Shown piece after piece: positions 19,731-46,020 of a stretch of DNA of 64,000 bases (within the stretch, counting starts at the first letter, position 1; each line of letters begins with the position of its first letter). Source of the stretch: Cirrosporium novae-zelandiae (lineage: Eukaryota). The position numbers were made by a program, and so were the translations under genes. The notes under the pieces are model-generated. The model had not been told where the DNA came from, did no database searches, and worked only from the letters and a program-made list of their open reading frames with translations. The stretch is from contig JAPETS010000035.1 in the NCBI GenBank assembly GCA_026023565.1, positions 62,001 through 126,000 on the forward strand, read 5' to 3'.

Positions 19731-21685
<1,955 letters not shown>

Positions 21686-22716: not shown

Positions 22717-24151
22717 TTACTCAAAATCTAACTCGTCCTCGTACCCGAAGTTGTATGCATCAAGGTGTAGGTCACTTGCAGCGGAAAAGAGACTGGGAAA
22801 TGTGGGATCTGAAGGCATACTAGGCAAGCCATTGACCTCAGCATTCAGGCCAAGACTATCGAGAACCCCCAAGGGCGAAACCATAGGGATGTTGGCGTTC
22901 AATGTGTTGGGATATGCATGATATGCATGCATAGGCAAGAAGCCCGGTGAGGGCTGGGTCAGGCTACCGAAGGAACCATCTGATGTGTTTGCATACATAG
23001 CAGCAGGGTGGATACCATTAGTGCTGTTTGAATAGTCTATTTGGTGATGAGCATGTTGGGGCAAATTGCTGTTGAATAACGTATTGCGAGATACTGGGTT
23101 CTCATCTTCCACCTTCATCTCGTTATCTGGTATCTTGTCAGACTTAATTATTTGAGATTCCTTCAAAGATCATCACATACCTTTACCATTCTCTCCTGCT
23201 GGGAAATGCAATAGCCCTGCTGGATACTGCTCAGACCCTTTGCGGATCTTTAGCACCACCATCTTTGATGGCGACAAGGATTCGGAAGCTGGTGTACCTT
23301 TGAAGGAAGTGTCGCTGTCAGACTTGCTGTGCTCCACAGCTTCCTCGTCCTCGTCGTTTCCCATATTCCCGCTTTGCTCCTCGTTATTTCCGTCGTAACT
23401 TTCGTCATTCTCCTCGTTACTATCCTCCTTGAATGTGGTACGGCGCTTTTTTGCTTTGCGAGTTGGACGAGTTGGAGGAGCTTTCTTCCCTTTATGCTTG
23501 CGTTTAGGATAGTCCTCATCAGAGTCCATCGTCTCACTGGTGTCCTCGCTTTCGTCACTGGAAGCAGATGATGAACGAGCACGAGATTTTGGTCCCCTCT
23601 TGTGGCCTTGCTTTGGCGCTGATTTACGAATTCCGCCTCTCTTGATACTAGGGGTCTGCTCAGCCTCATGACCGGAACGTTTCTGATAGCCACCTCCGCT
23701 CAGATTCCCACGAATAGTTGCCGTACCGCCACGCTTTAATGGAGGAGGTACATCGAATCCCTCTGCAACCATACGCTGGCGAAGTTTTGCTAAATGCTGG
23801 ACGGCAGCGCCTCCGGTAATTTGAGGATCAACCTCTTTCGCAATCGCGTCCCAATCTAATTTCTTTCCCTGCTGATTGCAGACAGATTGGATGGCAAGTA
23901 GCAATTTCTTATCGTCAGAATCTATGCCATTCACCAAAGTTAGCCTAGATATACGAACCTTTTCCAGGTCTTTTGATCCAAGAGACTCAAGAGTCATGGC
24001 GGTGCATAACCTTTGAGATTTTTGCGAAGCCGCATACTTTAGACCTGAAAAAGGGTTTGGTGTATGACATTTACTTACCTTCCCAGCGCATCAGGTAGCG
24101 ACCACCATGGCGACTACTCTCAGCCTTTTTCTTACTGGTTGTCTCACTCAT
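22717..24151 (-). CDS. Myb/SANT-like cluster gene A
   Basis: Exons 24151-24079, 23921-23181, 23126-22717. MSETTSKKKAESSRHGGRYLMRWE/DSDDKKLLLAIQSVCNQQGKKLDWDAIAKEVDPQITGGAAVQHLAKLRQRM, then basic/acidic disordered tail. Confidence 0.8.
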
Positions 24152-25126
24152 TTTTATGCGGTATTGACCTGGATAACTAAATATAACAAGTTAGTCGTTG
24201 AACATCCCGAAATGGATAGCTATAGACAGCATTTACTGCCTTAGGATATCAATGCCAAGAATAGAGGCCGACAATATGCGAGACCAGATGAATACCAGAA
24301 TTGCGGGGTAGAACATGGAATAGAGTGAATTTGGGGATGTTCCATTCTCGGAGGGTGAAGCTAAGGTTGGAGAGGTGGGTTCAACACCAGTCGTGCTCTA
24401 CTTGAGCTCCGAATCTCGGTGACAGCGACAGCGACACCTAGCACAACTGATGGACTCGAGATGAGACTGTCGATGCTAAGGTTGCTGTCGCTTACTCCAT
24501 TTTGACGAAGCAAAGACATGAGGATTGATGAACATACCTTGTGTTATGGGTGGTTGAGTAGACTGGTGTTGCAGAAGTAGTATGGTGCACCCAATCAATT
24601 GAGGTTGTTGGCAATACTAGTAGTCAAGAAGATAAGTGATGAGGTGAAAGTGAGGTTGGTCAATACCCTGCTCCTTGGAGTAGGGTATTGAGCAACGGAA
24701 AAGTATTTGACTTGAGGTTGTGGGTTGCTAGGCTGTTGTGACAATGAAAATGTGTTTGTTGAGGATGGGGATGAGGAAAAAGAAGACCAGACGAAACCCT
24801 TCGAGCCCTCGAGCTTGCGCCAGCCAAAACTGGACTCGAGCACATGCGATGTAGTCAATTCATTATCTACAGGTCCTGTCTAAGTGAATGATATGGCTTT
24901 CTTTCAATAGTGCCATGAGATGGTCTTGTTTGTTCCCAATATCAAACCTGCATGTTGTAATCCCAATTTTGTCAGTAGACAATGGAAGTGTAAAAGACAC
25001 GTTATTCTCCTTATGATCTACCACTATTACCCATCTCCATACAGACATTCTCAATTTCCAGAGCCAGAAGGTGTTGATTCTAGAGCGCAAAGGGGGATGC
25101 TATCCGCCTTTGTAAATTTCATTGGT

Positions 25127-25163
25127 GCGCGTCTAGTTTAGGGTTGCCTAAATATAGACGCGC
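25127..25163. repeat. Imperfect inverted repeat with CGCG arms upstream of gene A
   Basis: GCGCGTCTAGTTTAGG-gttg-CCTAAATATAGACGCGC; arms are reverse complements apart from one bulge and one G.T pair. Confidence 0.7.
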
Positions 25164-25969
25164 GCTAATAATAGGTACCGCGCGACTACCCTATCGGCTG
25201 CCACTAAATAACCGCCCGCCCACCACATTTCGCATTGAACTTCCAAATCAGGTTAGTTTTCTACCGCCTTAGGCATCGAGTCATACATAGATAATTAATT
25301 AATTAGCCCTAATCTATTTCCACTTCAGGTTTTCATGGGGCTAAGCGACCAATGGCACTTTGTGGAATGAGTCAAGTATCCTATCTACCTATTATGCATG
25401 ACATGACATAGGTGAGTATTTTCTTCTACTACTGCCTTCTGGGCTTATTGCGCTCCCATAATAATTTGGTAATACATGGGATTTTCGGAGTTTACGATTT
25501 CGTCTTTACCGAAAATCATGATACCTCTCTCTGTATAATATTGAATGACAGAATTACGATGCAGTAGCTATCTTAATGATCCATGAAATCGCGATGGATG
25601 GAGGTATTGAGTCTGGGGATGCCAAATCATCACCCCTGAATAACTTCTCTGATATTACCAACCTGCAACTACAATGAATGAATGAATGAGCGCATGCCAC
25701 CCTCCTAGCTGTAACCTCCTACTGTACAAGATCAATGTTTTAGTCAATTACTTTGTATTTCGCTAGCTGTGCTATCTCTCTCCAGCACGAAAGCGGCGTG
25801 ATGTCTCGTGTATCTTTATCTCGTTGAAAGAAAAACAACCATCACAGCTCTGCTTCTTCCGCTGTACCATCTTCTATCTGTTGCAACGCTATGCCACCAC
25901 CACTCACCATAAACCATCTGGTTCGCAACAGCTAGATCGTGACGGCTATCATGCAGCTTGGCTGGCTGG

Positions 25970-26704
25970 CTACTCCAAATCAGAATTCACAGACTCAGCC
26001 TTAGGCTTCTTACACTTGGGCCCTTCTGCATCATAATCATCATCATCCTCACTGCCTTCATTTTCCTCGTTTTCTTTCTGCTCGCTTTTTTTCTCCTCGT
26101 CATCACCGCTTCCACCATCACTATCACTCTTGATTTCCACCTTCATTTCGGCAGCCTTTTTTCCACGTCCACGTTTCCCAGGGGATTTGACCACCTTGGC
26201 AGCCTGTTTTCCCTTCCCCTTCCCAGTAGCCGAAGCACCAGCACCAGATCCAGATTTAGAATCACCTCCCCTCTTAGCCTTCGTATTCGCTGCTGTTCCT
26301 CCTCCTACTCCCGCTCCTGCTCCTGCTGATGACGGTGCAGAACCCGAACTAATGTTCTTCATCTTCGAACGAGCGACATTGAATTTCTGCCTCGCGACAA
26401 TGCCGTTCTTGAACCCATATTCTTGGGCGACGGCGTCGAAGTCGATCTGTATTTGTTAGTATGATAATAGTAATATAACATAGTACGTATTGAGGTATGG
26501 ATTTCTTATTATTATCATAACAGTGATGATGAAGATGATGATGATACAAAAGAAATAAATAAAACTTACAGAGGAATTGGAAATATCAAGGTGCCTCAAG
26601 CCGAGGAGAAGAATCTTTGTTTGAGCGGGGGTGAGCTGGGACAGGATGTCGGTAGTGGAGGCTCCATCAGCGGTGCCGGTGGTGGTGGGAGTTTTAGTCG
26701 ACAT
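25970..26704 (-). CDS. Myb/SANT-like cluster gene B
   Basis: Exons 26704-26570, 26446-25970. ...LTPAQTKILLLGLRHLDISNSS/IDFDAVAQEYGFKNGIVARQKFNVARSKMK, then G/A/K-rich tail with KRGRGKK and an acidic end. Confidence 0.8.
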
Positions 26705-27241
26705 GGTTGTTGTTTGTTTGTTGCTGTTAGTGGTTTGGAAAGGGTTGATGGATGATGATAGTAAGGGATGAAATTTTGTTCTGATGGTTCGATCAATCAG
26801 TATGGAAGTTCAGGAGAAGAGATGAAAAGAAAAAAGAAAAAGATAAAAATAAGGAGAAGAGGGGAAGAGGAGGGGAGGGTGGAAGAGGAGACAAAAAACC
26901 AAAAGATGCTTCTTTACCTGATTAGAATCTGAGAGATGAGTATCGAGGGTTCTTAGAATTATTGATCCGGTATATGTTTTCGAGAAATCGCCGAGAGGTA
27001 AAAGAGAAGGAAGAGGAGGAGGGGATCAATATGGCTTGTGTTCGTTCTTGAATGATAGTGTGATGATGAAGGGTGACTGGTGAGTAAATCTTTGTGGTTT
27101 TGGATCCTCCAAGAAGATAATTTTATTCGAAGTTAGGAGAAGTAAGTAGATAGGTAGAACTGAGGATAAATGAACGAGAGTTTGCTTGATCTGAGTCACA
27201 CACCTAACTATGGAAAAGAAGAAGAAGAAGAAGAAGAAGAA

Positions 27242-27530
27242 TACCCCCCTTCTCTCCCTTATCCCCCCCCCAAAAAGCCCTATTCCTTAAACCTAGGAGG
27301 AGAAGAGAGCTACTTTTTATGTTCCTATGATCCCTTTCCCACAACCAAAACCAAACCCGACCTCAGCAATATACCCCCCCTCTCTCTCCATCTCCCTTAT
27401 CCCCCTCCAAAAAATCTACCTCCCCAAACCCGGGAGGAGAAGAACGCTACCTCCTACTCCTACTCCTACACTCCCCTTTCCCACAACTAAAACTAAAACC
27501 AAAAGTACCAGCTCAACAATCTATACCCCC
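27242..27530. repeat. Degenerate two-copy tandem repeat (~130-150 bp)
   Basis: Both copies run TACCCCCC..TCTCCCTTATCCCCC..CAAAAA..AAACC.GGAGGAGAAGA..GCTAC..CCCTTTCCCACAAC.AAAAC..CTCA.CAAT. Confidence 0.65.
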
Positions 27531-28335
27531 CACTCGAACTAAACCCTTATACGGTATCTATATTTATATATCTATACCCGGCTGAACTTTTCCTTAATCC
27601 CGAAATCAAGAGTTTTTTTTTTCCCTTTTCTTTTTGCCTAGATGCTAGGTGCCAGATGGGGTATCGATCTATCTATCCAGCCCTCTTTGCTTATTAATTT
27701 TGTTTTATGTTAGGTTACTTGAGGTTAGTTTATTGAGCGGTTGATTAGGGGGAAGGGAATGGGGAGCGAGGGGGGGAGAACTACGGCGAAGTTGGAAGTT
27801 GGAATTTGGGTGCGAGATTTTTGGCTTTCTTTCTTTGTGGGATGGAATGGATGGCTAGGGAGGGGGAATTTGAGAATGTGATTTGTGGGGCGGGATGAGG
27901 AAGGAATGGGAGTATGATGGGAGTGTTTGTTGGATTCTGGATGGATGGACTTGTTTGGGATAGGATGGGTGGAAGGGATTGGAATGGATTTGGGCATGAT
28001 ATGGTTTTTATATATATATATGGGAGGGTCTGGGGGGGGAGGGGGGATTAGATAGGAAGAAAAAGGGTGGATAATATGGAAATTGGGTTTCAAGAGTCGC
28101 AAGCTCATTTCATTTCATTCCATTCAACGACCATGATCCACTATCCTTTCATGTCGTTTCATTTCCCAATCTCGAAACTTCCAGATGAGTTTCCAACTCT
28201 CTCTCTCTCTCTATCCCACAAATCTACATACCAAGCCTGCTTATCTGCATGTGCATATGCGTCACCTCTCAAAAGCCGTCAGACCATCCAACTAACGTCT
28301 ATAAACCACCCCCCAATCTCCCCAATCTCGAGGCT

Positions 28336-29228
28336 TCAGATAGTATCATCATCATCTATAGCCTCATTCTTAACAACAACCTTCTCCTCATCACCGTCAA
28401 GAATCGTTTCATCGGAATCATACACCTTCGCCTTCTCCGCCTTCCCCATCTCCGTCCCCTTGCTCTCACCCCCACCACCCCTAGGTGTAGCCCTAATTTT
28501 CTGAATCTTACGGCCCCTAGGCTTAGGCTTCGTAACCTTAGCAGTCCCCAACACACCAGAACCAGAAGCGGTAGTCATCTTCCCCTTCTTCGCATTCATG
28601 GTGGTAGGCATAGGCGTAGGCGTAGCAGGAGCACTCTCAATATCAACCCCAGAATCAAATGGGGGAGAAGAAGGAAGAAAACCAATGCTGGCGGCGGTGG
28701 TGGCTTCTGCTACTGCTGCTGCTCTAGATTTGGCGGCATCACGGTTGAGGGTTGCATGAACGGGGATTTTGTATTTACGTCGGAGGAGGGCGATGCGGTT
28801 TGCAACAGAGCCGGAGTTCTTGTAGCCTAGGGCTTCGGCGACGGCTTTGACGTCGATCTGGTTGGTGGGGAAGGGGGGGGGGTTAGTGCTAGTGATTAAT
28901 GGGGGTGTTGAGGGGATGGGATGGGGGAGAGAAAGGGAGAGGGGGTAGAGGGGAAGGTGGAGGAGGCTTGGAAAAGGCTGTCCGTCCATCCGTCGCATGA
29001 GGGATGTGGAGGGGGGATATACTTACAGAAATAGCGCCGGTAGCTTGGCGGAGGCATTCTGCTAGGAAGCGAGTATCGGCACCATCGATAGCATCTTCTG
29101 CCGATTTAGTAGCTAGAGAGGTTGGAGTTAGTTCTGAAGGGTTTGGATGGAAGGGGGGAGGGGGGTGGTGTGAAGAGGATGAGAGTCGATCGAGAGACAG
29201 GGTTGAGGGGAGTTTTTTTACCTGGCAT
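28336..29228 (-). CDS. Myb/SANT-like cluster gene C
   Basis: Exons 29228-29222, 29112-29027, 28857-28336. MPATKSAEDAIDGADTRFLAECLRQATGAIS/IDVKAVAEALGYKNSGSVANRIALLRRKY, tail with KVTKPKPRGRK and VKNE. Confidence 0.8.
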
Positions 29229-30199
29229 TTTGAACTGTTGGGACTGCTGGAGAAGGTTTGGTTAGTTATTATTGTTGTGTATGAAGTATATGTGAGTTAT
29301 GTATAATGATTCGATGGAAGATGGATGGATGGATGGGAAAGATATAGATGATGTGTAGAACTTAAAAAAGGGAAAAGGAAGAAAGGTACTCAGAATCAAT
29401 GAAATAGAAAATAGAAAATAGATACATACCAAAACCAAGTCTCTCTCTATGCGTATGTATGTTCTCGCTATCGAGTTTTCGAGGGGAAGCTGCAAATGAG
29501 ACCAAAAGAGTTATGATGGTGTGGTGTGGGATGTGAGTAATACCAAAAACACACACAAGAAGGGAATCGAAAATTTTTGAAGAAAAGGATGAGGGCTTTC
29601 GAAAAGTTCCAAGTAATACTGGGGGATAAGGATTTTAGTGTTAGATGTAACGCGGTAAGGAATTGATGTCGAGCCAGGGCCAGGTCCTCCCCGTACCCTC
29701 TGGATTAGTGCGTGTGTGTGTGTGCTCGGCACCATTGAAAGAAAATGTCGTATATAAATATCCGCGGGGACGGGGGCGGTTTCGTACGGTGCCCAGGGGT
29801 ACGGTGAACTACAGGTACATTTCTTAACATATGCGTTTTGTATCTAAGGGTATTTTTAGGAGATTTCTAGGTAAGATAAGAGCGGAAGGAGAAACGTTGA
29901 ATTCCAGCTATGCTGCTATATGAGCAGCGTTCACATCCTCCAGAGCAAACTAGATACAAGGAAAGGTCATTGTTTGACCACTATTCATGTCACCGCACCC
30001 CCCACAAGACAAGTCTTCCCCACAGGCCAACTGGCTTCACAGCTTAAGAAAAATGGAATTGAAAAAAGAGTCACGTCTCCACCAAGATTCTGGAAGGCTC
30101 CCCCTAGTTCTCCTCTGTCTTGATTTTAGTGGCACCAGTCCTAAAGAAATTGTACTTAGTAAATTACTTATTTTAGTTATGAAAGAGATAAGGGGGATA

Positions 30200-30703
30200 T
30201 TACTCTTCAGCTTTGTCTTCAGTCTTGCCGTCCTTTTCTGTTTCAAGGTCTGGCGTGAGAACAGGGTTTGGAGCCTTTGTGACATCCATGTTGGAATCAG
30301 CCATTATGGCTTCATCCACATCCTCACCCTCAGTGTCCTCGCTGGCCTCTGTAGTCTTCTGGGCAGCAGGAGCTCTGGCTTTCCTGGGAGAAGCACGAGG
30401 TTTTGTCACCTTGGTGACATTGGTAGGCCTAGAATTGGTACCGGGGCGTTTCACCCCGTATCGTGTTTTCAACTGTCCGTATCGTGTCTGAGCGGTGCTG
30501 ATGTTTTTCATCCCAGTTGCCTTCACCACCTCACCCCAATCAATCTGTAATATCATAGATTAGTTGCTTGTAAACTTGAATTAGAACAGACTGGAAGTTC
30601 TCAGGTGTTTTACCTTTAGAGGTGCTTCAAGGTTTCCAAGGACAGCAAGGAAGAACTTGCCGTCCTTGTCAGTGAGCTGTGGTGTATTTTGTGAAGCAGA
30701 CAT
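30200..30703 (-). CDS. Myb/SANT-like cluster gene D
   Basis: Exons 30703-30614, 30544-30200. MSASQNTPQLTDKDGKFFLAVLGNLEAPLK/IDWGEVVKATGMKNISTAQTRYGQLKTRY, tail KVTKPRASPRK then acidic; probable 5'UTR intron ~30768-30705. Confidence 0.8.
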
Positions 30704-31302: not shown

Positions 31303-31545
31303 TAATGAGTGAACCAATCTGTCAAAACGTAATATTAGCACTAGTAGTGTGAGTACGACACGGAAACTTGACACGAGAATACGCACGTGATAGTTTGACT
31401 CCAGTGAGACAAGAGTATCGCGGGGAAGATAATGAGTGAACTAGTCTGTTAAAACCTAATATTAGTACTAATAGTGTAAATACGACACGGAAACACGACA
31501 CGAGAATACGCACGTGATAGTTTATGGCTCCAGTGAGATAGTATC
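31303..31545. repeat. Direct tandem duplication (~110 bp unit, 127 bp period)
   Basis: Copies start at 31303 and 31430 (TAATGAGTGAAC...); shared core TACGACACGGAAAC..GACACGAGAATACGCACGTGATAGTTT. Confidence 0.9.
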
Positions 31546-32842
31546 ATCATGAGTAAGATATTTCTTTCAAGAAAGTCTCCTGGTCATTCAGTCATGGTTC
31601 GTGAAACCACTGACATTTACATGTACCATAGGAACATTCTAATCAAAGATATTTAATAATTCTTCTTGTTGACTTCAGCTTTTTTGTTGCAAAATTGTTA
31701 TGTCAATCAGAAACTGATGTGAGCAGGTATTATTCAACTTGTTAGGAATGTCAAAATTTCCACCGGAATTTGACTTTGGCATACGTTTAAGGGTCAATAG
31801 CTTTCAAACAAAGGAAGATGAAGTCTTGGGACCCTTGCTGCTGGTGTTGGAGACTTGGGGCTGAATATGGCTGTTGGAAAGAGCCATTAGGTAGCATACT
31901 GTAAGGTATAATGTTAAACCATGTATGAAACTTCCGCTTGGATGCCACTTACTAAATAGCTATTGGAGAGCTCTTGGAGAGATAACCTTCAATGTCTGGA
32001 TTTTTTTGGGAAGCATAAATAGGTCGAACATTGCTTTAATATTCTAAGCTTGAATGTTTAAGATAGCGTGAATAGGATATGGATATTAAGTTCGAAAGCT
32101 TTTAGGTAAGAGTTGACTCGCTTGGTAGAATGGTATGGTAGGGGTTATCACCTAAGTAGCCGTCAACAACGTCGAATGAACTTTCTAGTAACACACTCTT
32201 GTACACAAAACAGCTAGAAGAAGGTTGGGAAAGCAATGAACTTGGCTTAAGGTTAAGCTTGCTTAGACTTAGCCAATATATACGAATTTCTCTGTGTTGA
32301 TTATATATGGTTGGACCAGGTGAGATAACAAAAACGAAGGAAACATCATGTAATCTGATAGATCTGTACAACAATAGGAAAAAATCCTTACCCATAACCA
32401 AGGTACTAGCTTTCGTCATGACTACGGCGAGTTCCTAGATTGTCAATATCCTACTCTGCAAGCTTGCTTCTATAGCACAGAACCTTGGATGAAGTATTCG
32501 GAAGAACATGACAATGGACCAGGTGTCAAACTCTAGGCCACAGAGAGGACGGTTGCAATGGGCTGAACGGATGAGTTGCATTGATGACTTGAGAAAAGAA
32601 GTAATACAAATAGCAAACACGATATATTGTTTCATGCCCAATGAGATTCGAAAACCTAAAAGAAAACTGGCAAATCCAGGGATAATCTAGTGTACAAAAA
32701 CAGTATTAGTACACAAAGAGGTACATTATAAGCCCCAGATACAGATAGAAAATCTCCTGAATTCTTTTATTACTACAGCGAGGTTGAAAATATTGATCCC
32801 TAGATTCTTGTTCCACCCAAAGAGAACACCTTCCAAAGAACT

Positions 32843-33690
32843 CTAAGCATCGAGAGGTTCGATCTTGATTTTAATATCATTGGCTAGAGGTCGGCGTTCC
32901 TCGCATTTCCGAGGAATCGGGTTTAATAGCATAGTTGAACTGGGCGAGGCAGAATGGATAGACGGTTCACTCTTCACCCTAGTGAGATCGGCGAGCATAA
33001 GGTTGGAGGGATAATGCTGTGACAAGTTCTCGGATGACGCCGAATCGATAATATTACCCAGGGAAGGGGTGGTGTGGGTGGTATGAGATATAGCCTGGTG
33101 CTGCAACAAGGCTGATGCTGGGGGTTTCTTGTCCTCTTCAACAGAGCCATTGATGGAGAAGGGCGACGCAAAGTTGAAAGGAGCTAAGTTATTGGCATTC
33201 AAATTAGGAGAATTGATAGGAGGTAACGTGGACGAAAAAGAATTGAAATCAGATATATCGTTATGCTGATTTTGGTGAAGCCCACTAGATGAAGGATCTG
33301 CAAGCTCCTGCTTGACTTTTTTGGGTGGAATAGGCGCTGGCTCCTCAACAATTTTAGATATCTCCCCGGCAGCCCGTTTCCTACCACTCGTTTCTGCTGT
33401 CGACTTTTTGACTCGGTTCCTAGGGGTAGAAGGGATTCCCTCCATGTGGGCCCTAAGTCGATGAAATCGCATTCTAGCAGCATGACCATTGGGAATGCAA
33501 AGTTCAGATGCAACCGCGCTCCAATCAACCTAAAAGATCTACCATTAGTTCAAGAAGTCAACGATAACAGCTGGCCCTTAAAACTGCTACATACAGACTT
33601 CATGTCAAGTTGCTTATTGATGGTATAGAGGAACTTGGCTGTTTGGCCATCGGCCAGCATAGTCTTGCTTCTATAGAGACCTAGAGGCAT
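32843..33690 (-). CDS. Myb/SANT-like cluster gene E
   Basis: Exons 33690-33595, 33529-32843. MPLGLYRSKTMLADGQTAKFLYTINKQLDMKS/VDWSAVASELCIPNGHAARMRFHRLRAHMEG resembles, from memory, the fungal Myb-like domain family (Pfam Myb_DNA-bind_8); tail has VKQE, VKSE and IKIE. Confidence 0.85.
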
Positions 33691-35351: not shown

Positions 35352-35947
35352 ATGGTTCAGTGGACACAGGCCGAAGAGCGCAACCTCTTCCTCGCAATCA
35401 TTCAGATTGCAGGGCTCAAGAGCGTCTCATGGCCCGAAGTCTCGGCCATAATGGGTCCCGGGTTCTCGTCGGAAGCTTGCCGGTAAGTTTAATACTCTTA
35501 CATCTCCCTCTCATCCAACCCCACCCTACGCTGACTCGATTCTTTCTCACCCTCTAACCCGATCATCCCACTACCTATGCCCTATCCTTTCCCCCAAACC
35601 CAAGATCATATCTAATATAACTTAGCCAGCACTTCGGGAAGATCAGGCGCGATGGCCAGAAAGGTAGCACCAGCTCCACCCCCACCACCCCCTCCAAGCA
35701 AGCAAAGTCGGCTCCAGCCAAGACACCCACTCCTCGGCGCAAGCGCAAGGCAGCTGAATCAGTTGACTGCGCCGCAGAGGACGACTCGGAGCCTGACATC
35801 AAAACACCAGTCAAAGTCAAGACCGAGCCTCCTGTTTCTGCTGAGCCTACCCCGAAGAGGGCCAGGAAGCCCGCAAGGCTCTCTACCATCAAGGTAGAAG
35901 ATGCCGATGAAAACGGGCGCATTTATCTTGACGAAGACGAGGAGTAA
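35352..35947 (+). CDS. Myb/SANT-like cluster gene F
   Basis: Not in ORF track. Exons 35352-35482, 35626-35947 (or to 36023 via a further intron). MVQWTQAEERNLFLAIIQIAGLKSVSWPEVSAIMGPGFSSEACR/QHFGKIRR, tail TPSK, TPTPRRKRK, VKTE, TPKRARK, IKVE. Confidence 0.8.
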
Positions 35948-36780
35948 GCTACTCTTAAAAACTTACCTTTACTTTTGGAGATCCAAACTAACACCTCTTA
36001 GAAATAATGACATCTCTCTCTAGGGTCACAATCAACAAACCAAAAGATCGCTGGTGGAAGTCCCGTGTGTTGGCTATTCTCTCTAGGGTATTGGTTATTC
36101 TCTCCATCGTGCCGGTGGTCCTCCTATCCTACTAGTGCTCCCCCTTCCCATCCCCAGCGGTTTTTGATAATCCCTTCCCTTTGCCCTGTTATATCCATCC
36201 ATCCCATTTCAATCCCCTCCCGAGTGCTATAAATAAGCACATACATAAATAAGTCTTTAGAAATTCCTACATCTGACAAGCTCTTTTTTAGAGCTTACAC
36301 AGAGGCAAATAAATTTTTTGTGCGTGTTTTCTTTTTTGAACTTGACTTGGGAAGAACCTTGTAAGGAGTGAGTGTAAGATTTTCTGGATCAAGTGGTTAG
36401 CTGGTTAGCTGGTTGAGTAATGAGATAGGTGTACACTCTTCTAGGTAAAAGGGGGGTTTTCTTTCGTAGATATCTAGTCCTACTTACATATACCCCCTCC
36501 CCCTTTAACCATACCAATACCAATACTAATACCAATACCAACACTATCACACACAAAAAAAAACTCCTAGCCTTTTCTTTCATTTCTAGGATTCATAGTA
36601 TCCATAATATCCACTGCGTCCCCTTATTCTGGAAAAGCTATTATAGTAGGGAGGTTTTGGTTTGGTAAAATGGAATGGAGTGAAAGGAAAATATATTGGT
36701 ACTAGTCGTTGGTGGACTATCAATCTAGGCGATGCATCTAGGTGAGGATAAAGGTATCGAATATCTACCATTTGCCAGGG

Positions 36781-36982
36781 CCAACTACCAAGTCAACTAC
36801 TAAGCTGATCCGCTCGATCATATTTCCGTTTCATTCCATTCTCTCCCCAGTTAGGTAGTTAACTGAGAAGGCTATCAACTATCAACTATCAACTATCGAC
36901 TAACTACCATGACCAACTACCCGCCAAAGAACCACCAGACCAACTACCAAGCCAATCCGCTCTGTCCTACTTCCATTCTCTC
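36781..36982. repeat. Short duplication and (TATCAAC)n-like array just downstream of gene G
   Basis: CCAACTACCAAG..ATCCGCTC..TTCCATTCTCTC at ~36781-36845 and ~36940-36982, with a heptamer array between. Confidence 0.55.
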
Positions 36983-36994
36983 TCATTTTCTCCC

Positions 36995-37876
36995 CTAAAC
37001 AATAACATCAGCCCCCAACCCCCACTCACTAAAATCGCTCATATCCCCCTCCCCATCACTCTCATACTTCTCAACCTTAACGGCTGAAACTCTCATTTTC
37101 TTCCCCACCTTGGTCTTCGAAGGGGTCTCCAACCCAAACGCATTACCATCACCATCACCAAAATCCTCACCCTCACCATCATCATCCGACGTGGAGGGGG
37201 TCCTGGCGCGCTTGCTGCCAGTAGAGGGGGTAGATTGGGTGCTAGTTTCTTTGGAGGTCTTGAAGGGGGTTGTGGCGTAGAGGGTTTCGATGTCGGTGGT
37301 GAGGTTGTCGACTTCTTTTTTGGTGATTGTGGGGGAGGTGTCGGAGTCGTCGGAGATGTCTAGGGGGAGGGCTTTGGATCTGGGGGTGCGCTTGGGTCTG
37401 GTGCTGGGGGTGGTACCGTTGCTGTTAGAAGTGTTGGTGTTGGCTTTGCCGGCACCGTTAGGCTTGCGTGGGGTGCGAGGGGCGCGGGGAGTGGTGTTGG
37501 TGGTGGTGGCGGAGCCGCTGGTGATGGAGAAGTGGGCTGCGCCGTCTTTTTTGGCCTTTTCACGGATCTTCACCAACCGTTCTTGGATGGCACGTTTGGT
37601 TGGCTTGTCGCCGCCCATGGTGGATGCTAAAGGAGATGGTTAGTGGGGATGGTTTGTTAGGTAAGGTAGGAGAGAACTTACGCCAGGTCTCGGAGATCTT
37701 GGCTGGGTTGATGTTGACATTTGAGGTTTCGAGGATTTTGAGGAGGAGCTGGAAGAGTGGCGGGTAAGTAAGTTGTGGGAGATATGGTTTAGTGGTATGT
37801 GTGTATGTGAGGGGGTCGAAATAATGGGAGAGTTGCTTACCATTTGATCTGCCTCGGGAGTCCATTTCATAGGCAT
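36995..37876 (-). CDS. Myb/SANT-like cluster gene G
   Basis: Exons 37876-37841, 37748-37682, 37626-36995. MPMKWTPEADQM/LLLKILETSNVNINPAKISETW/PSTMGGDKPTKRAIQERLVKIREKAK, tail with many TPR/TPS sites and VKVE. Confidence 0.85.
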
Positions 37877-39849
37877 GATGGCGATGATGCTGGTATTAAC
37901 CAGAGCAAAGTCTTGACTGTTCTGATAAGTATAGAGTGAGGGGTGAGTTCGAGTTGAGTAACGAGGAGTCGAAGGAAAGGACATACGAGTTGAAACTTGG
38001 AAACTTGAGAACACTTGAAGGATGCTCTACTGGACTTAAAGTAGAGTGCGAAAAGTGGTGAGAGTTGAAGAAAGAGAAAGAAAATAAAGAGGAGAGACAC
38101 TTAGATGAGTCTCGAGTAAGCATGAGAGATTGAAATATGGGGATCTAAATCTTTGAGATCGGAAAGTTCCTCGTCATGGGATGGAAATTTGGGAGCGGCT
38201 TAAAAGGCCGCTCCAATAACACGTTTGCCTATGTATCTCAGAGCGTTCAATCCAAAATTCCCTCGGTGCTTTTTGGTACAGATATTAACTGTCGCCGAGG
38301 ATACAGTACTACGGGGAGATGCAGGTGGTATAACTGCCAGGGGTTCGTGGAATACGGAACGCGTCATTAGGACGTTGATGAAATAGATACATGATTATTA
38401 TCCTTGGTTGGATCAAACATGATGTGCTTCCTCTCTATCGTGCAGTAGACTCGAGGAAAATTGGTAGAAGGATGTCGATTTAGCTTTGTCCTGGTACATG
38501 CATAGAGACTTGAATACCATGAGGCTTGGCAGGGACAACATCCACTTAAGTCGTGATGATGGACAGTGTAGTATACGGAGGAGAGGAACAGACCAGCATC
38601 CCAACGCTCAGACCATGTACCACTTAGCGTCCCATAAGATCCCAAAAGCTTACGCCAACCTCTGTGAAGTTTAATCAGACCACTTCACATTAATGCATCA
38701 TTCACGTTTAAAATTATTAACTTGACAGAAAATTCGGAAGCTAGAAAAATACCTGAAGAGATCGGGAGATTAAATACTGCTCCGTATCCAAAGAAAAAAT
38801 ATTTCTAAAATATTTCTAAAATATAAAAAAATTACCTTACAATATTGATGCTGTGAGACGACAGAGATTTTCATTGTTGTTTATTCTCTTTGTTTTGTTC
38901 ATTTCCTTGTCTATACCATATGATTCCGCGATATTACATATACTGCTGCATTAAGACTCTACATGAATTTGACCAGCCCCAAACTATACCAACCCAACAT
39001 TATCAATTCTAAAGTACACAGGTATTATTAGCCATGTAACATTTCTATTCGTATATGTTTATGACATGATCACTAGAGCTGGCAACTGGATTCTCTTATT
39101 TCTTTAGTTAAGGCTATCGGTTTATCATAATATTGGTAACCAAATGACATTGTCGAATACCAAGACCAAATCCCAACTACACTACCATAGATGCAGGAAT
39201 ACTGTTTCTGTGACCGGTACTCCGTATTCTACAGACGTACCAGACGCGAATATGTCACCACGTACTCCTTATAATGTATGTAAATCTATTGTGGGGTTTA
39301 AAAAGGGCTGTCAGACACTTGTTTTTCCCCTCATGCGATCTTTACTAAAGAGAAAATGTGCGTTATAAATACAACTTAGAAACTTCACCTGGTTCCATTC
39401 TGTTTGGGTGAAAATGGATACTATGGTTTTGGTATATTCTTGACATTAGAAGTGCGGTACTAGGAAACGATGCTAATCCGAAGACTTTGCACTCGAGATC
39501 AGACGTAACCTTTTTGCCTTACCGAGAAACGACTAGGCAATTTGCTTTTCGGGGGCGAGTATATAGATAGCTCTTGAGGGGCATACTATCTCTATTTGCC
39601 AGCTAGTTTCACCTCGTCTTACTATCCACTGATGTGACTCGACAGTGAATAAATCGAGAGACAATCAGGCTCCTAAGGCAGCGAGTCCGGCGTTACTGCC
39701 CTGGGTGCTCCTTTTATTTATCTTCCAATTCGAAAGGGAAACCCTCTTTCTTTTCTTTCACCCACGTTTCATTCACATCACACCCAAACAGCCACTACCT
39801 CACCACAATCCATCGAAAACTTCAGTGCTCAAGCTAAATCATTTCTATT

Positions 39850-40471
39850 ATGCCTAAAGGACAGCCTACTATTACGTGGAACGATTCTAACCACACTAAG
39901 CTTCTCTATGCCCTCCTTCATGAACACAGAGAAATGAAGCTTGATCTGGCGGCTACTGCTAGTCATTTTCGTAAGTCACTCCTATCTAAGCCTTGAATGA
40001 TACCTTCCCGAGGTCTGCAATCATCTAACCTTCTACTAGCTGATGGAGTCGATGAGAATGTTCTTGCTCGTCGCATTACCAAGATCAAAGCGGCTATGAA
40101 TGATAATTCTGCCACCATTATGGGCAGTTTCGATGCTGGTGGTGCCAATGCCCCAGCCACTCCCACTTCCAAGGCTCGCCGCAAGAAGTTAACCCTGAAG
40201 AAGGTCGTCGAGGACAAAGAAGATGGCTCTGCTGATGTCGATGACTCCCCTACGAAGAAGCGTAAGCTTTCCAAGGTAGTAGTCGAGGAAGGTAAGTGTA
40301 AGACCCCAGCCTTGCAATTTAAATTACTGACTATTTCAGAAATCCCTAGTGAAAAGAAAGAGTGAAGTTTTGGAGGATGTGTCACTTGGAGGTTACTTGG
40401 ACGAGCTTTCTGAGGTAACAAAGCCTCGAACCTTGCTGGTTGTCTTCATTGGACACCGTGTACAGCTGTGA
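39850..40471 (+). CDS. Myb/SANT-like cluster gene H
   Basis: Exons 39850-39970, 40040-40291 and a last exon (end 40365 or 40471, uncertain). MPKGQPTITWNDSNHTKLLYALLHEHREMKLDLAATASHF/PDGVDENVLARRITKIKAAM, tail TPTSKARRKK and SPTKKRK. Confidence 0.75.
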
Positions 40472-41461
40472 AACTAGATAGCGAGATAGTAAGGTTGTTT
40501 TCTAGGGGTGTCTTGAGTCCCCTTAGGAGATGAACAAGGAAACATGCAGCTACTGATCAATCCATGTCGCTTTATCTTCACCTTTCAGCATTGTAGAAAG
40601 TACATTTCCTCTTCAAAGACTAAGCTTTATAGTATTAGAAGTCTGCAGTAAATGATTCGTATTATTCCCAACAATTGGACTCTAAGTTTGGGGTACTTGT
40701 GTACTATCTTCTGGAAACAGTGCTGTTCAATTCTCCGTTAAAGATGTTGCTCTGGAATGGTATTTTTGTAAAACGGTCGATCTTCAACTTGAACCATACT
40801 GACATATGTCGAATAATCTCCTAAAATTCCATACTCATAAAAAGATTAGAGTGTCCCTTTCCGATAGTCTGCTCTTTAAGCTCTAAAGTGTTAATCTATC
40901 CTCTCTTTTGTTTGAATGTGTGAAGATTTGAATATTAAACATCATAGAATAATATCTTACAATACTGGTATCCTATCTCCCGTATTCTCACACCCATACC
41001 AGTAGCGAAAAGCAGTAGGATCACTGAAACTAGGGAACCATGTAGGTACATGTAGAAGAGTTTCCCCGGTTTTAGGTATGCTAGCCATCTAGGCAGCAAC
41101 ACTTGAATCCATATAACCGTTTATCAGTTTACTCAAATGTTTGCTCTTTCATGCGTCCGTTGTTCACCGCTACATTGACTACTGCAATCACTTTATGCAG
41201 CCACTTTATTAGTCAATCTAGGGGGTTGGGGTTGGGGGAGGCATTTAGTAAACCTTTGCCAGGGACGGAAGCATCTTCCCGTTGCTAGAAAAATTTCTGT
41301 TCCTTGCAGATTGATAGAAATAATCCTTGAAAATGCCTCGAAAGCGGGGAGGGGGGTGGAGGGCTATTGATTGATGCAAATGCTTGTTTATTTTTTGACT
41401 AAAAACCAAGTCAATTGACTCATATCTTAGGTTGGTGATGTTCATCGGCTACAAGTCATTA

Positions 41462-41481
41462 GCGCGTTTCACGCGTCGCGT
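41462..41481. promoter_or_regulatory. Cluster of three CGCG cores including a perfect MCB (ACGCGT) upstream of gene I
   Basis: GCGCGTTTCACGCGTCGCGT in CpG-poor surroundings. Confidence 0.4.
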
Positions 41482-42226
41482 GTACATGCATTAAGCGAGT
41501 GGGGGCGCTAATCCCCCACCACCTAGTAGATTGTATTATGGCTTCTCTCTCAAGGAAGAAGTCCGTTGTTGTTAAATACAACGACAATGCCATACGGATT
41601 TATTTCAAGTTGTATAGGGAACGTACCTTGCAATATAATGCCTGCAGTATAATGATAAGGTTGTCTGTTTTATTTTTTTCACGTCAATAGTGATTTTGGG
41701 TGGATGGAGAAGCATCCCGGATATCTAGTATAATGTCGTCGTCGAGGGCAGCAACATGTTTTGATAGCATTCACAGACAACGAGGCTCGAGAGGCTTTTT
41801 GGCTGTGCCCCCCGTGAAGAGCATGTCGACCAAGAGACAGTGTTGTCGTGTTCATCTCCGAGGCGATATAAATTCAGGCATCTGTTCCTATAAGTTGACC
41901 ATTGTTTTCTCTTCTACTTTCAGTCATGTCATGCTCTCAAGGATAAAGCTCAAGTCCAAGTCCAAGTTTTGATTTCTCTGGCTTTCAAAGATCCTCTCCC
42001 TCGAGAGTCATCTCAAAGTTCGGTATCAGCTCACTCATCTCACTTACACTGGGACTTCTCTTGAACTATTTCCTCTCCACTCTATTTCGAACCCAGTTCT
42101 TCAAGTCTTTCGAAGTATCCAGCCACCTCAACAGTCGCCACCTTTTCATCTTTCCTCTTATTACATTCATTCCTCATATCTTCAACTACTAAAATATCCT
42201 TCGACTATCAAGCAGCAACATTCACC

Positions 42227-43033
42227 ATGGTCAACTGGAAAGCTGCCGACTCCTACGATCGTTTGATCGCCGCGGCTGTTGCTTGTAACAGCGTCGTAAG
42301 TTCTCCATTCCTTTACTCTCAACTGGCATCCAGCTATGCCATCTCCTTACTTCATTACACCGAGACCTCTTTCTCTACTTTGATACTTCCATCCCTCACA
42401 TCCCGTTCATTATACTACCGCCCATTTTCTTCCTCAAACCAAATCCTCACTCCACAATCCAATCTCTCCTCAACCCCCCCTTAAAGCAAAACTCACTAAC
42501 CTCACTAGACCGACTACAGAACCATCGCCCACTTCTACGGCAGAGATGCAACCTACAATGCCATTGAAGCCCAGTTCCGCAAATTCCGCAGAACGGCTGA
42601 AACTCTAAAGAGCGAAGCTGCATCTCGTGGAAACACTGCTACCCCTGGTGCTGCTTCCGCGACCCCTACTGGAGCAAGCTCACCTGTAACCCCCACGCCC
42701 AAAAGAGGTCGCCCTGTCGGCAGCACCTCCGGCAGCGGTCGTAAGAAGGCCACCACCACCCCCAAGGCTACCACGCCTGCCGCTTCCAAAGATGGAGTCC
42801 TCTCTGGTCGTGTTTCGAAGCCAAGTACTCCAACCAAGCCTCGTGGAAAAGCAAACGCTTCTGCTGCTGCTGCCAAAGGCAATGAGAGCAAGGATTCCAA
42901 GGACACTGCTGTCAAGATGAAGGCGGAGGGTTCTGATGCTGACAAGGATGAAGATGAAAAGACGAGTGGGTGGTTGGGTCCTGATGTGAGTTTACTAATC
43001 CCTTTTCCCTTCCCCTCCCCTCTCTTACCCTAG
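42227..43033 (+). CDS. Myb/SANT-like cluster gene I (with AT-hook)
   Basis: Exons 42227-42295 and 42509-~42985 (3' end uncertain; possible donor at 42986). MVNWKAADSYDRLIAAAVACNSV/TDYRTIAHFYGRDATYNAIEAQFRKFRRTAETLK, tail TPKRGRP (AT-hook core), GRVSKP, MKAE. Confidence 0.8.
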
Positions 43034-45880: not shown

Positions 45881-45955
45881 AAGAAGAAGAAGAAGAAGAA
45901 GAAGAAGAAGAAGAAGAAGAAGAAGAAGAAGAAGAAGAAGAAGAAGAAGAAGAAG
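45881..45955. repeat. (AAG)25 microsatellite
   Basis: Perfect trinucleotide array read directly; source of the spurious poly-Phe ORF. Confidence 0.95.
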
Positions 45956-46020
45956 AACAAGATCTGTAGCGCATTAGCCGTTCCAACACCATCGGGAAGG
46001 AAAGACTTACTTTTCAAACC

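What the first reader, a model, noticed from the sequence alone, without database searches (positions are those of the whole stretch)
22717..43033. Uninterrupted array of nine diverged single-Myb/SANT-like genes: candidate undescribed chromatin/regulatory gene cluster
Seen: the nine consecutive genes recognisable over ~20.5 kb (A-I; strands -,-,-,-,-,+,-,+,+) each encode one N-terminal ~50-aa domain. The domain has helix 1 ([W]x5-7[KR]LL/FL), a [IVL]D[WFY]xx[IV]A helix 2 and a basic helix 3 (AxxxR[FYL]x[KR][LIF][KR]), followed by a disordered charged tail. No unrelated gene was recognised between them. Their DNA shows no obvious similarity by eye, so this is not a recent tandem expansion. Introns split every domain, so the ORF track hides the pattern. 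Established: Myb/SANT helix-turn-helix domains bind DNA or histone tails. Inference: an old, deliberately retained paralog cluster acting jointly (heteromeric chromatin complex or stage-specific regulators). I know of no functional description, but cannot confirm novelty.
Basis: partly seen in the sequence, partly recalled or inferred. Interest (0 to 1): 0.92.

Follow-up and report, generated by a model that had tools for sequence, protein, structure and literature searches.

The report
Conserved array of nine Myb-like genes
Nine neighbouring fungal genes each encode a small protein with one Myb-like three-helix domain and a long disordered tail; parts of this old gene row, next to the hsp60 gene, recur in distant fungi, but nobody knows what these proteins do.

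Summary
Window 22717-43090 carries nine intron-split genes, on strands -,-,-,-,-,+,-,+,+. Each starts with a ~50-residue three-helix domain followed by a charged, disordered tail.

All 11 introns I modelled are GT..AG. Four NCBI models agree with mine across the domain.

In leave-one-out profile tests, 9 of 9 domains rank first against shuffles and against the rest of the window. A profile built only from other fungi also scores all nine above 2,700 shuffles. No further member lies in the window.

The domain is not unknown. It is Pfam PF22980 (Myb_DNA-bind_8). D and E pass its cut-off. A, H and I do not. B, C, F and G could be scanned only as separate exons.

The row is old. In metagenome contigs the gene-A orthologue sits upstream of hsp60 in 9 of 10 sequence groups. 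In 6 of 7 groups with enough flank, 1-4 further family genes lie upstream of it. Named fungi of two other classes show adjacent or fused members.

Function is untested. A DNA-binding regulator role is my inference. Joint action has only one weak in-silico hint. No RNA run was listed.

The parts
22717..24151 (-). Gene A. The NCBI model (locus tag ...765, P0014, 483 aa) starts further upstream, at 24316. A phase-1 intron (24078-23922) follows the R-W-E. A second intron lies near 23170. This is the most conserved member of the row and the neighbour of hsp60.
   Evidence: PF22980 scores 17.0-17.6 bits, below the cut-off of 27. Leave-one-out HMM 39.5 bits. AlphaFold gives three helices, with block-mean core pLDDT 85-93.
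25970..26704 (-). Gene B (203 aa by my model). A phase-0 intron (26569-26447) lies just before helix 2. The tail holds an RGRG motif.
   Evidence: The exon holding helices 2-3 scores 17.3 bits on PF22980. Leave-one-out HMM 28.5 bits.
28336..29228 (-). Gene C (204 aa by my model). It has two introns; the second is phase 0 and lies just before helix 2. The tail holds an RGRK motif.
   Evidence: The exon scores 14.9 bits on PF22980. Leave-one-out HMM 27.9 bits.
30104..30703 (-). Gene D (locus tag ...768, P0009, 155 aa). A phase-0 intron lies just before helix 2.
   Evidence: PF22980 scores 32.3 bits, above the cut-off of 27.
32843..33690 (-). Gene E (locus tag ...769, P0007, 260 aa, identical to my model). 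A phase-0 intron lies just before helix 2. It is the second conserved anchor of the row.
   Evidence: PF22980 scores 55.5 bits. Orthologues lie 7.5-9.5 kb upstream of the A orthologue in 14 of 26 loci. AlphaFold gives three helices at pLDDT 63.7.
35352..35947 (+). Gene F (150 aa by my model). A phase-2 intron lies inside helix 3. F is transcribed divergently from E.
   Evidence: Leave-one-out HMM 35.1 bits. External HMM 35.0 bits. Its exons scanned one by one gave no Pfam hit.
36995..37876 (-). Gene G (244 aa by my model). Two introns lie in the domain: phase 0 after the Trp segment and phase 1 after helix 2.
   Evidence: Leave-one-out HMM 21.8 bits. External HMM 24.5 bits. The G-like gene at L003:6809-7366 scores 28.9 bits on PF22980, and gene G is its best match in the window.
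39850..40365 (+). Gene H (locus tag ...772, P0010, 132 aa). A phase-1 intron follows helix 2, at the same aligned place as G's second intron.
   Evidence: No Pfam hit at E <= 1. Leave-one-out HMM 26.6 bits. External HMM 30.0 bits.
42227..43090 (+). Gene I (locus tag ...773, P0008, 200 aa). A phase-0 intron lies just before helix 2, as in B-E. The tail holds one exact RGRP (AT-hook core).
   Evidence: No Pfam hit at E <= 1. Leave-one-out HMM 15.2 bits, the weakest of the nine. External HMM 22.3 bits against 12.3 for the best shuffle.
19731..21311 (-). Main exon of the hsp60 chaperonin gene. It lies downstream of gene A on the same strand and serves as the syntenic anchor of the row.
   Evidence: One search lists the ORF; the name is my reading of its translation. 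In the 19 loci that hold most of the gene, tblastn finds it 87-92% identical, downstream of the A orthologue on the same strand; two more loci hold short end fragments (21 of 26 loci; 9 of 10 sequence groups).

Best explanation
What it is. This is an ancient tandem row of nine diverged paralogs of one fungal family of small proteins. Each protein has one N-terminal three-helix Myb-like helix-turn-helix domain. Four genes (B-E) look like core Pfam PF22980 Myb_DNA-bind_8, though only D and E were shown to pass its cut-off. Five (A, F, G, H, I) are more distant relatives. After the domain comes a 79-208-residue tail (measured on my models) that is rich in K/R and S/T/P/G/A and looks disordered. 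Some tails carry RGR-type AT-hook-like motifs, and many end in an acidic stretch.

How it arose (shown or strongly inferred). The row arose by old tandem duplications. It predates the split of the window's class (Xylobotryomycetes, by the name sources give the identical proteins) from Eurotiomycetes and Lecanoromycetes. It has stayed beside hsp60 while members were gained, lost and reshuffled.

How it most likely works (inferred, not shown). Each protein is nuclear and binds DNA. The uniformly basic third helix would act as the recognition helix, and the basic tail would add phosphate or minor-groove contacts. The differences between the third helices would give the paralogs different targets. 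The proteins would then act as transcription or chromatin regulators.

What remains open. Whether they act together is not known.
For: Gene models.
- All 11 introns are canonical.
- NCBI proteins match my models over the domain for D, E, H and I.

Family membership.
- PF22980 scores 55.5 bits for E and 32.3 for D, against a cut-off of 27.
- 9 of 9 domains rank first in leave-one-out HMM tests.
- An HMM built from 15 domain segments of 7 proteins from other fungi scores all nine above the best of 2,700 shuffles (12.3 bits). Scores: E 45.0, A 38.5, F 35.0, C 34.8, H 30.0, D 29.0, G 24.5, I 22.3, B 18.8.
- hhalign of the A-type profile (153 segments) against the non-A profile gives 96.7% probability, E 3.9e-10.

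Shared intron positions. A phase-0 intron lies just before helix 2 in B, C, D, E and I. A phase-1 intron lies after helix 2 in G and H.

Fold. AlphaFold gives three helices for E (residues 15-27, 35-42, 47-61; pLDDT 63.7) and for A (residues 2-16, 23-30, 36-52; core block means 85-93). The top VIA rows for E include Myb-type domains: ZZZ3 2yum Z 5.6 (rmsd 3.6, 63 aligned), GT-1 2jmw Z 5.6 (rmsd 6.4, 63 aligned), Cdc5 6jui Z 5.2 and RAD 2cjj Z 5.0.

Charge. The helix-3 region has net charge +2 to +5 in 9 of 9 genes. Tails are 11-22% K/R and 37-61% S/T/P/G/A.

Age and synteny.
- 26 metagenome loci fall into 10 sequence groups.
- hsp60 lies downstream of the A orthologue in 9 of 10 groups.
- In 6 of the 7 groups with at least 6 kb upstream, further family genes lie upstream of A, nearly all on its strand; L009 also has one on the opposite strand.
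- Named records agree. Fonsecaea monophora has adjacent tags ...00481 and ...00482, annotated as one fused protein in F. pedrosoi. Aspergillus nanangensis P0138 has three PF22980 stretches (134.9 bits). Squamulea and Xylographa have models joining a G-like domain to an A domain.
Against: - No experiment or RNA data bears on any member.
- Structural likeness to Myb/SANT is not significant. Foldseek gave no match at E <= 0.001 for either model. The better model (A) has a best VIA Z of 3.9 with no Myb domain among the 50 rows. Bacterial winged-helix regulators score as well as Myb domains for E.
- A, H and I, scanned as full proteins, fail the Pfam cut-off.
- The classic three-tryptophan pattern is incomplete. 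The first Trp is present in 5 of 9 genes, an aromatic residue at the helix-2 position in 6 of 9, and at the helix-3 position in 5 of 9 (read).
- A single Myb repeat often binds DNA poorly on its own (my knowledge).
- The row is not universal. One of 7 informative groups (L018/L024) has only A beside hsp60.
- Gene order differs between lineages. A G-like gene lies next to A in L003 and L019, whereas G lies beyond E in the window.
- No shared upstream k-mer stands out above random sets.
Confidence: 0.6

Rival explanations
1. The domains act as SANT-like protein-interaction modules, not DNA readers. The paralogs pair through them into one hetero-oligomeric chromatin complex, and the genes stay linked for balanced dosage.
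For: One structure-prediction test of the A domain (90 aa) with the E domain (70 aa) gave 'weak support'.
- Score 0.44; best of 3 controls 0.00.
- The tool's counts: the mark was reached by 51 of 78 solved complexes and 2 of 108 mismatched pairs. At 0.60 or under it was reached by only 5 of those 78 solved complexes and by all 4 mismatches that passed (of 180).
- The runs agree in at least 82% of contacts, and the partner's pLDDT is at least 64.

Single-Myb proteins that pair through their Myb domains are known in plants (RAD/DIV/DRIF; my knowledge). The RAD domain 2cjj is among the VIA rows for E, at Z 5.0. The row is conserved across classes.
Against: - By the tool's own text, such a weak pass is more often wrong than right unless the guess was likely beforehand.
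- The two chains are paralogs of one fold, which may favour side-by-side placement.
- Only 1 of 36 possible pairs was tried.
- The helix-3 region is basic in 9 of 9 genes, which fits a nucleic-acid surface better than an acidic SANT surface (my knowledge).
- Membership of the row varies between lineages, and one lineage keeps A alone. That fits poorly with a fixed complex.
Confidence: 0.15
2. The linkage has no functional meaning. The genes are independent regulators left side by side by old tandem duplications in a chromosome stretch that is seldom rearranged.
For: - No shared upstream motif stands out above random sets.
- Order and membership differ between lineages.
- Strands are mixed.
- Housekeeping neighbours such as hsp60 are themselves syntenic.
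Against: Several members persist together across at least three classes, although fungal gene order is generally scrambled over such distances (my knowledge). No co-expression data exist either way. This reading is compatible with the best explanation's account of what the proteins are; it differs only on why they stay linked.
Confidence: 0.3
3. The genes are domesticated or decaying remnants of a mobile element that carries a Myb-like accessory protein, as PIF/Harbinger elements do.
For: Myb/SANT-like accessory proteins of such transposons exist (my knowledge). An IS-type HTH protein (TnpE, 2rn7, Z 5.4) is among the VIA rows for E.
Against: - No terminal inverted repeats or DNA repeats link the genes.
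- No transposase ORF was seen in the ORF lists.
- The position beside hsp60 is fixed across lineages.
- Intron positions are conserved.
Confidence: 0.04
4. Some or all of the nine are mis-predicted ORFs or pseudogenes.
For: No RNA evidence could be obtained. The tails are low in complexity. Public 3' models differ from mine for D, H and I, and the 5' model differs for A.
Against: - All frames are open with canonical introns.
- The domains are recognised by profiles built from other fungi.
- Orthologues of A, E, D and G exist elsewhere.
Confidence: 0.03

Closest known systems
Pfam PF22980, Myb_DNA-bind_8 ('Myb-like DNA-binding domain'), as carried by hypothetical proteins of Ascomycota
   Same: D (32.3 bits) and E (55.5 bits) pass the family's cut-off. 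The exons of B and C that hold helices 2-3 match the corresponding half of the model. Relatives in Fonsecaea (73.9 bits) and Aspergillus nanangensis (134.9 bits, 3 stretches) are clear members.
   Different: A scores 17 bits. H and I have no hit. F and G have none on single exons. These five are linked to the family only by custom profiles and hhalign. I found no paper that uses the family's name or accession, so the name is an annotation and not a tested function.
Single-repeat Myb / SANT / trihelix domains with solved structures (human ZZZ3 2yum, Arabidopsis GT-1 2jmw, Cdc5 6jui, Antirrhinum RAD 2cjj)
   Same: Three helices of similar order and length. These are the top VIA rows for the E model, at Z 5.0-5.6. 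ZZZ3 is also Foldseek's first row for the A model. The third helix is basic.
   Different: The scores are in the range the tool calls uninformative, and bacterial HTH regulators score alike. A sequence profile finds no solved relative (best E 0.25, an Lrp regulator). The aromatic triad is only partly kept.
Tandemly arrayed families of transcription-factor genes (for example KRAB zinc-finger clusters of mammals and tandem R2R3-MYB clusters of plants; recalled, not tested here)
   Same: Paralogs of one DNA-binding-domain family stand side by side and arose by tandem duplication.
   Different: Here the copies are old: no DNA similarity remains and protein identity to E in the domain alignment is 14-28%. 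They are very small, have mixed strands, and are conserved as a row across fungal classes beside a housekeeping gene. They are not lineage-specific recent expansions.
AT-hook proteins
   Same: Gene I has one exact RGRP core, B has RGRG and C has RGRK, all inside basic, proline-rich tails. The ESM Atlas's nearest structural cluster to H and I is auto-named 'AT hook motif protein' (TM 0.58-0.65; a lead only).
   Different: Six of the nine have no such motif. Pfam reported no AT-hook family for the proteins scanned.

Membership tests
Pfam PF22980 Myb_DNA-bind_8 | Whole-protein score at or above the curated cut-off (27 bits): genes D and E | tested here: met
   P0009 (D) scores 32.3 bits and P0007 (E) 55.5 bits, covering model positions 2-49 and 3-49 of 50.
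Pfam PF22980 Myb_DNA-bind_8 | Whole-protein score at or above the curated cut-off: genes A, H and I (full annotated proteins scanned) | tested here: not met
   P0014 (A) scores 17.0 bits. P0010 (H) and P0008 (I) have no hit at E <= 1. A-type homologues P0001, P0002, P0006 and P0160 also have no hit.
Pfam PF22980 Myb_DNA-bind_8 | Whole-protein score at or above the curated cut-off: genes B, C, F and G | tested here: inconclusive
   Only separate exons could be scanned. B scores 17.3 and C 14.9 bits on the helix 2-3 exon. F and G give none. The spliced proteins could not be handed to the tool.
PF22980 superfamily (homology at profile level) | Significant match of each of the nine domains to a profile built from members outside this genome | tested here: met
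   The external HMM of 15 segments gives 18.8-45.0 bits for all nine, against 12.3 for the best of 2,700 shuffles. hhalign of A-type against non-A profiles gives 96.7% probability, E 3.9e-10.
Myb/SANT three-helix helix-turn-helix fold | Three alpha-helices in a ~50-residue domain | tested here: met
   AlphaFold models of E (pLDDT 63.7) and A (core block means 85-93) each show three helices. The other seven genes were not folded.
Myb/SANT three-helix helix-turn-helix fold | Clear structural match to solved Myb/SANT domains | tested here: inconclusive
   E model: VIA Z 5.6 to ZZZ3 and GT-1, tied with unrelated HTH proteins. A model: best Z 3.9 with no Myb among the rows. Foldseek gave no match at E <= 0.001 for either model.
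Myb/SANT three-helix helix-turn-helix fold | Three regularly spaced Trp or aromatic core residues (feature recalled from knowledge of Myb repeats) | tested here: inconclusive
   Read from the alignment. The first Trp is present in 5 of 9 (A, F, G, H, I). An aromatic residue at the helix-2 position is present in 6 of 9 (A, B, D, E, F, I). An aromatic residue at the helix-3 position is present in 5 of 9 (B, D, E, F, I). The rest have aliphatic residues; G has a proline at the helix-2 position.
Myb-type DNA-binding proteins | Binds DNA through the third helix | not testable with these tools
   The only indirect evidence is a net charge of +2 to +5 in the helix-3 region in 9 of 9 genes.
Tandemly arrayed gene family | Paralogs adjacent on the chromosome with no unrelated gene between them | tested here: met
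   Nine family genes lie in 20.4 kb with gaps of 971-2,139 nt (on my models). No other fragment of the window scores above 8.2 bits. The source locus tags seen (...765, 768, 769, 772, 773) leave room for exactly the four genes not retrieved.
AT-hook proteins | R-G-R-P core in a basic context | tested here: inconclusive
   One exact RGRP in I. RGRG in B and RGRK in C. None in the other six.

The most novel reading that the evidence does not exclude
The row encodes the subunits of one fungal-specific, modular DNA/chromatin-binding assembly. The single Myb-like domains would pair with each other (A with E, and by extension others), so that two or more weak one-repeat readers combine into a specific one. 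The genes would be kept together beside hsp60 across classes of Pezizomycotina because their dosage or timing must be balanced. Lineage-specific gain and loss of members would then retune the assembly's targets.
Probability: 0.12. Interest if true: 0.7.

Novelty: new member of a known kind. Interest (0 to 1): 0.42.

Why it matters
These proteins belong to a fungal family that Pfam lists but for which I found no study. A profile search found 1,024 representative clusters at E <= 0.001.

Two things may be new. First, members form an old, conserved row with a fixed chromosomal anchor (hsp60). Second, five divergent subtypes that Pfam misses belong to the same superfamily.

This gives a concrete handle for study. 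One locus could be deleted, tagged or profiled as a whole in a tractable mould. Improved profiles would annotate many 'hypothetical' small proteins.

It would matter more if the members prove to work together. Conserved rows of regulator paralogs are uncommon in fungi (my knowledge).

Tried and rejected
Data that were not available.
- Whole genome of the window: none is held.
- RNA evidence: no RNA holder was listed for window:28001-38000. The splice models therefore rest on sequence and on public gene models only, and read laying was not used.
- Extending the metagenome contigs beyond 10 kb: the genome search by handles answered that the records are not held. The F-I side of the row could therefore not be examined in other fungi.
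- Earlier notes of this scan: nothing by place, by sequence or by words.

Literature (search listings and abstract starts only, plus passages of one paper).
- 0 papers for 'Myb_DNA-bind_8' or 'PF22980'.
- 187 papers for the Myb-like/Pezizomycotina/cluster/paralog terms. None of the 15 listed is on this family. I read passages of PMC8396895; it treats zinc-cluster paralogs, not this family.
- 13 papers for the 'AT hook motif protein' and related terms, all on plants or protists.
- 5 papers for the single-Myb terms. The closest, PMC11199622, concerns a two-repeat MYB-like protein of Aspergillus nidulans (seen as an abstract start only).

Structure and sequence searches with no clear result.
- Foldseek against PDB gave no match at E <= 0.001 for either model.
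- VIA-wide for the A model gave best Z 3.9.
- A PDB sequence-profile search gave best E 0.25.
- ESM Atlas for H and I gave nearest clusters at 0.85-0.86, carrying PF22980 in 17% of members. These are leads only.

Other features looked for and not found.
- Shared promoter words: the top 7-mers occur in 6 of 9 and the top 8-mer in 5 of 9 upstream regions, within the range of 200 random sets.
- Rfam: 0 matches.
- tRNAs: 0.
- DNA repeats joining the genes: none.
- Transposon origin: rejected, with no inverted repeats and no transposase ORF.

Flawed steps.
- My first regex scan for the motif was too strict and found only gene E.
- My first leave-one-out run wrongly left the training genes' own fragments in the database. 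I redid it.
- My first 'non-A' external set was contaminated with A-type segments. I redid it.
- I first called the minus-strand hit at L009:1-93 'F-like'. Its best window matches are all weak, so I now call it an unassigned member.

Full report
**1. What is there**

The window is fungal. Introns have GTAAGT-type donors and CTAAC-type branch sites.

Between 22717 and 43090 I modelled nine genes, on strands -,-,-,-,-,+,-,+,+. All 11 introns in their 5' parts begin GT and end AG, are 55-213 nt long, and give frames open to a stop.

Database searches returned proteins 100% identical to the window, which NCBI lists as hypothetical proteins of a metagenome-assembled genome of Cirrosporium novae-zelandiae:

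| Gene | Protein | Locus tag | Length |
|---|---|---|---|
| A | P0014 | ...765 | 483 aa |
| D | P0009 | ...768 | 155 aa |
| E | P0007 | ...769 | 260 aa |
| H | P0010 | ...772 | 132 aa |
| I | P0008 | ...773 | 200 aa |

- E equals my model over all 260 residues.
- D, H and I agree with my models over the domain and differ only by extra 3' introns.
- For A, the public model keeps part of what I read as the first intron. My splice puts the acidic stretch and helix 1 directly after the R-W, as in homologues from Aspergillus and Fonsecaea.
- The tags leave room for exactly B and C (766, 767) and F and G (770, 771). No other gene is therefore annotated inside the row. I did not see those four records, so this is inferred.

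The flanks hold ordinary genes, named from my reading of the translations: ERCC1-like, coproporphyrinogen oxidase, hsp60, a protein kinase, a Brix-domain protein and an F-box/LRR protein.

**2. Is the shared domain real?**

The nine N-termini align collinearly: an optional Trp, helix 1 with an LL/FL core, helix 2 opening with [IVL]-D-[WFY], and a basic helix 3.

- Pairwise phmmer links are modest. The best are B-E at 4e-7 and A-F at 4e-6, in a database of nine.
- Leave-one-out profiles are clear. Each left-out domain ranks first against 2,000 shuffles of itself plus all six-frame fragments of the window outside the nine genes. Scores run from 15.2 bits (I) to 39.5 bits (A). The best shuffle scored 7.1-13.3 and the best non-gene fragment at most 8.2.
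- The window therefore holds exactly nine members, all contiguous.
- An independent profile, made only of 15 domain segments from 7 proteins of other fungi, scores all nine at 18.8-45.0 bits against 12.3 for the best of 2,700 shuffles.
- Intron positions add evidence of common descent. A phase-0 intron lies immediately before helix 2 in B, C, D, E and I. A phase-1 intron lies after helix 2 in G and H.
- No DNA-level repeat joins the genes, so the duplications are old.

**3. What family is it?**

Pfam already holds the domain as PF22980, Myb_DNA-bind_8.

- E (55.5 bits) and D (32.3 bits) pass the cut-off of 27.
- The helix 2-3 exons of B and C match the matching half of the model, at 17.3 and 14.9 bits.
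- A scores 17 bits, below the cut-off. H and I have no hit as full proteins.
- F and G have no hit as single exons.
- hhalign of an A-type profile (153 segments) against a non-A profile gives 96.7% probability, E 3.9e-10.

I read the row as four probable core PF22980 genes (only D and E shown to pass) plus five divergent relatives in one superfamily.

A profile of 12 domain sequences found 1,024 representative clusters at E <= 0.001 and 273 at E <= 1e-10 among 1.84 billion representatives. That profile was weighted towards the A type.

**4. Fold**

- AlphaFold of the E domain (12-row alignment) gives three helices at mean pLDDT 63.7.
- AlphaFold of the A domain (66-row alignment) gives three helices with 10-residue block means of 85-93 over the first 60 residues.
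- Foldseek found nothing at E <= 0.001 for either model.
- VIA-wide for E puts Myb-type domains at the top (ZZZ3, GT-1, CDC5L, Cdc5, RAD; Z 5.0-5.6). Bacterial HTH regulators score the same, and the tool warns that such Z values are common.
- For A the best Z is 3.9.

'Three-helix HTH' is therefore supported. 'Myb/SANT specifically' rests on Pfam's name and on weak structural rows.

The helix-3 region is net +2 to +5 in all nine genes. Tails are 11-22% K/R, 9-23% D/E and 37-61% S/T/P/G/A. RGR-type motifs occur in B, C and I.

**5. Is the row conserved?**

A scan of metagenome contigs with the A-domain alignment gave 26 loci. They fall into 10 groups at >= 90% DNA identity around the A gene.

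- hsp60 (87-92% identical where most of the gene is held) lies downstream of the A orthologue on the same strand in 21 of 26 loci, or 9 of 10 groups. The tenth group is a 1-kb contig. This is the window's arrangement.
- Seven groups have at least 6 kb upstream of A. In six of them, further family genes lie upstream on the same strand.
- An E orthologue lies 7.5-9.5 kb upstream in four groups, or 14 of 26 loci.
- A three-exon gene of the Fonsecaea P0161 type lies upstream of A in six of the eight representative loci tested.
- A D-like gene occurs in L009 and a G-like gene in L003 and L019, with weaker B-like and C-like hits.
- Counting these, I see 2-5 members within 10 kb in these six groups.
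- One group (L018/L024) has A and hsp60 only.

Named records agree.
- Fonsecaea monophora has a P0161-type gene and an A-type gene under adjacent locus tags. In F. pedrosoi they are annotated as one 726-residue protein.
- An Aspergillus nanangensis protein has three PF22980 stretches: E-type, C-like and B-like.
- Models from Squamulea and Xylographa join a G-like domain to an A domain. I cannot tell whether these fused models are real proteins or merged neighbours.

By NCBI taxonomy the window's species is in Xylobotryomycetes. Fonsecaea and Aspergillus are Eurotiomycetes and the two lichen fungi are Lecanoromycetes (my knowledge). The row therefore predates these classes.

Order and membership are not fixed.
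- The G-like gene lies next to A in L003 and L019, but G lies beyond E in the window.
- The window has no clear orthologue of the P0161 type.
- Clear one-to-one orthology holds for A and E, for D in one group, and for G in one group.

The F-I side could not be examined elsewhere, because flanks stop at 10 kb and the contigs could not be extended.

**6. How it probably works**

Shown: nine expressed-looking, intact, conserved genes for small proteins with one Myb-like HTH and a charged, low-complexity tail.

Inferred: the proteins are nuclear and bind DNA through the basic third helix, helped by the basic tail. The diverged third helices would give different targets, and the acidic ends might recruit partners.

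I put about 0.6 on this as a whole. The identity and conservation part is near certain; the DNA-binding part is roughly even odds or a little better.

Joint action remains open.
- One prediction of the A domain with the E domain gave 'weak support'. The score was 0.44 and the best of 3 controls 0.00.
- By the tool's calibration, the mark was reached by 51 of 78 solved complexes and 2 of 108 mismatched pairs. At 0.60 or under it was reached by only 5 of those 78 and by all 4 mismatches that passed (of 180).
- The runs agree in at least 82% of contacts, and the partner's pLDDT is at least 64.
- The tool states that such a pass is more often wrong than right unless the guess was likely beforehand.
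- No shared upstream word exceeds random expectation.

**7. Novelty and verdict**

The domain family is catalogued, and the proteins are annotated as hypothetical or 'Myb-like domain-containing'.

My searches found no paper on the family or on such a row. These cover open-access full text and bioRxiv only.

I rate this a real, ordinary-in-kind but uncharacterised feature: a new, deeply conserved member of the class of tandemly arrayed regulator families. Interest is moderate.

Noticed in passing
window 31303-31560 and 27252-27500: Two local tandem duplications lie in intergenic DNA of the row. One is a ~127-nt unit repeated twice (89% identity over 94 nt) between D and E. The other is a ~137-142-nt unit repeated twice between B and C.
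   Followed up: no
window 24079-24316 (gene A 5' end): The public model of gene A (P0014) starts 165 nt upstream of my start. It reads through part of the 157-nt intron, inserting about 40 residues between the Trp and helix 1. Homologues in other fungi lack this insert, so the public model is probably mis-spliced.
   Followed up: partly
window 44001-46000: This stretch has the lowest G+C of the window (0.349). It includes a long A-run that reads as a poly-lysine ORF at 45863-46291, just beyond gene I and before a protein-kinase gene (46021-47706, minus strand).
   Followed up: no
P0034 (Phlyctema vagabunda, 539 aa): One protein has an I-like N-terminal domain followed by several repeats of the helix 2-3 unit (6 matched stretches). 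The family therefore also occurs as internal repeats within one polypeptide, not only as separate neighbouring genes.
   Followed up: partly
L003:4810-5171, L005:4306-4601, L006:5810-6143, L009:5901-6120, L019:5408-5765, L026:3848-4130: A very well conserved three-exon family gene of the Fonsecaea P0161 type lies upstream of the A orthologue in six lineage groups. It has no clear orthologue in the window: its best window matches are E, D and C at E about 1e-4.
   Followed up: partly
L018 and L024 (A orthologue at ~10001): In this lineage the A orthologue and hsp60 are kept, but no other family gene was found in the 10 kb upstream. That DNA is G+C-rich and full of long spurious ORFs on both strands.
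   Followed up: no
L009:1-93 (minus strand): A fragment matching helices 1-2 of the family lies on the opposite strand, 1.5 kb beyond the E orthologue. This is where gene F lies relative to E in the window. The contig ends there and the best window matches are weak, so I could not assign it.
   Followed up: partly
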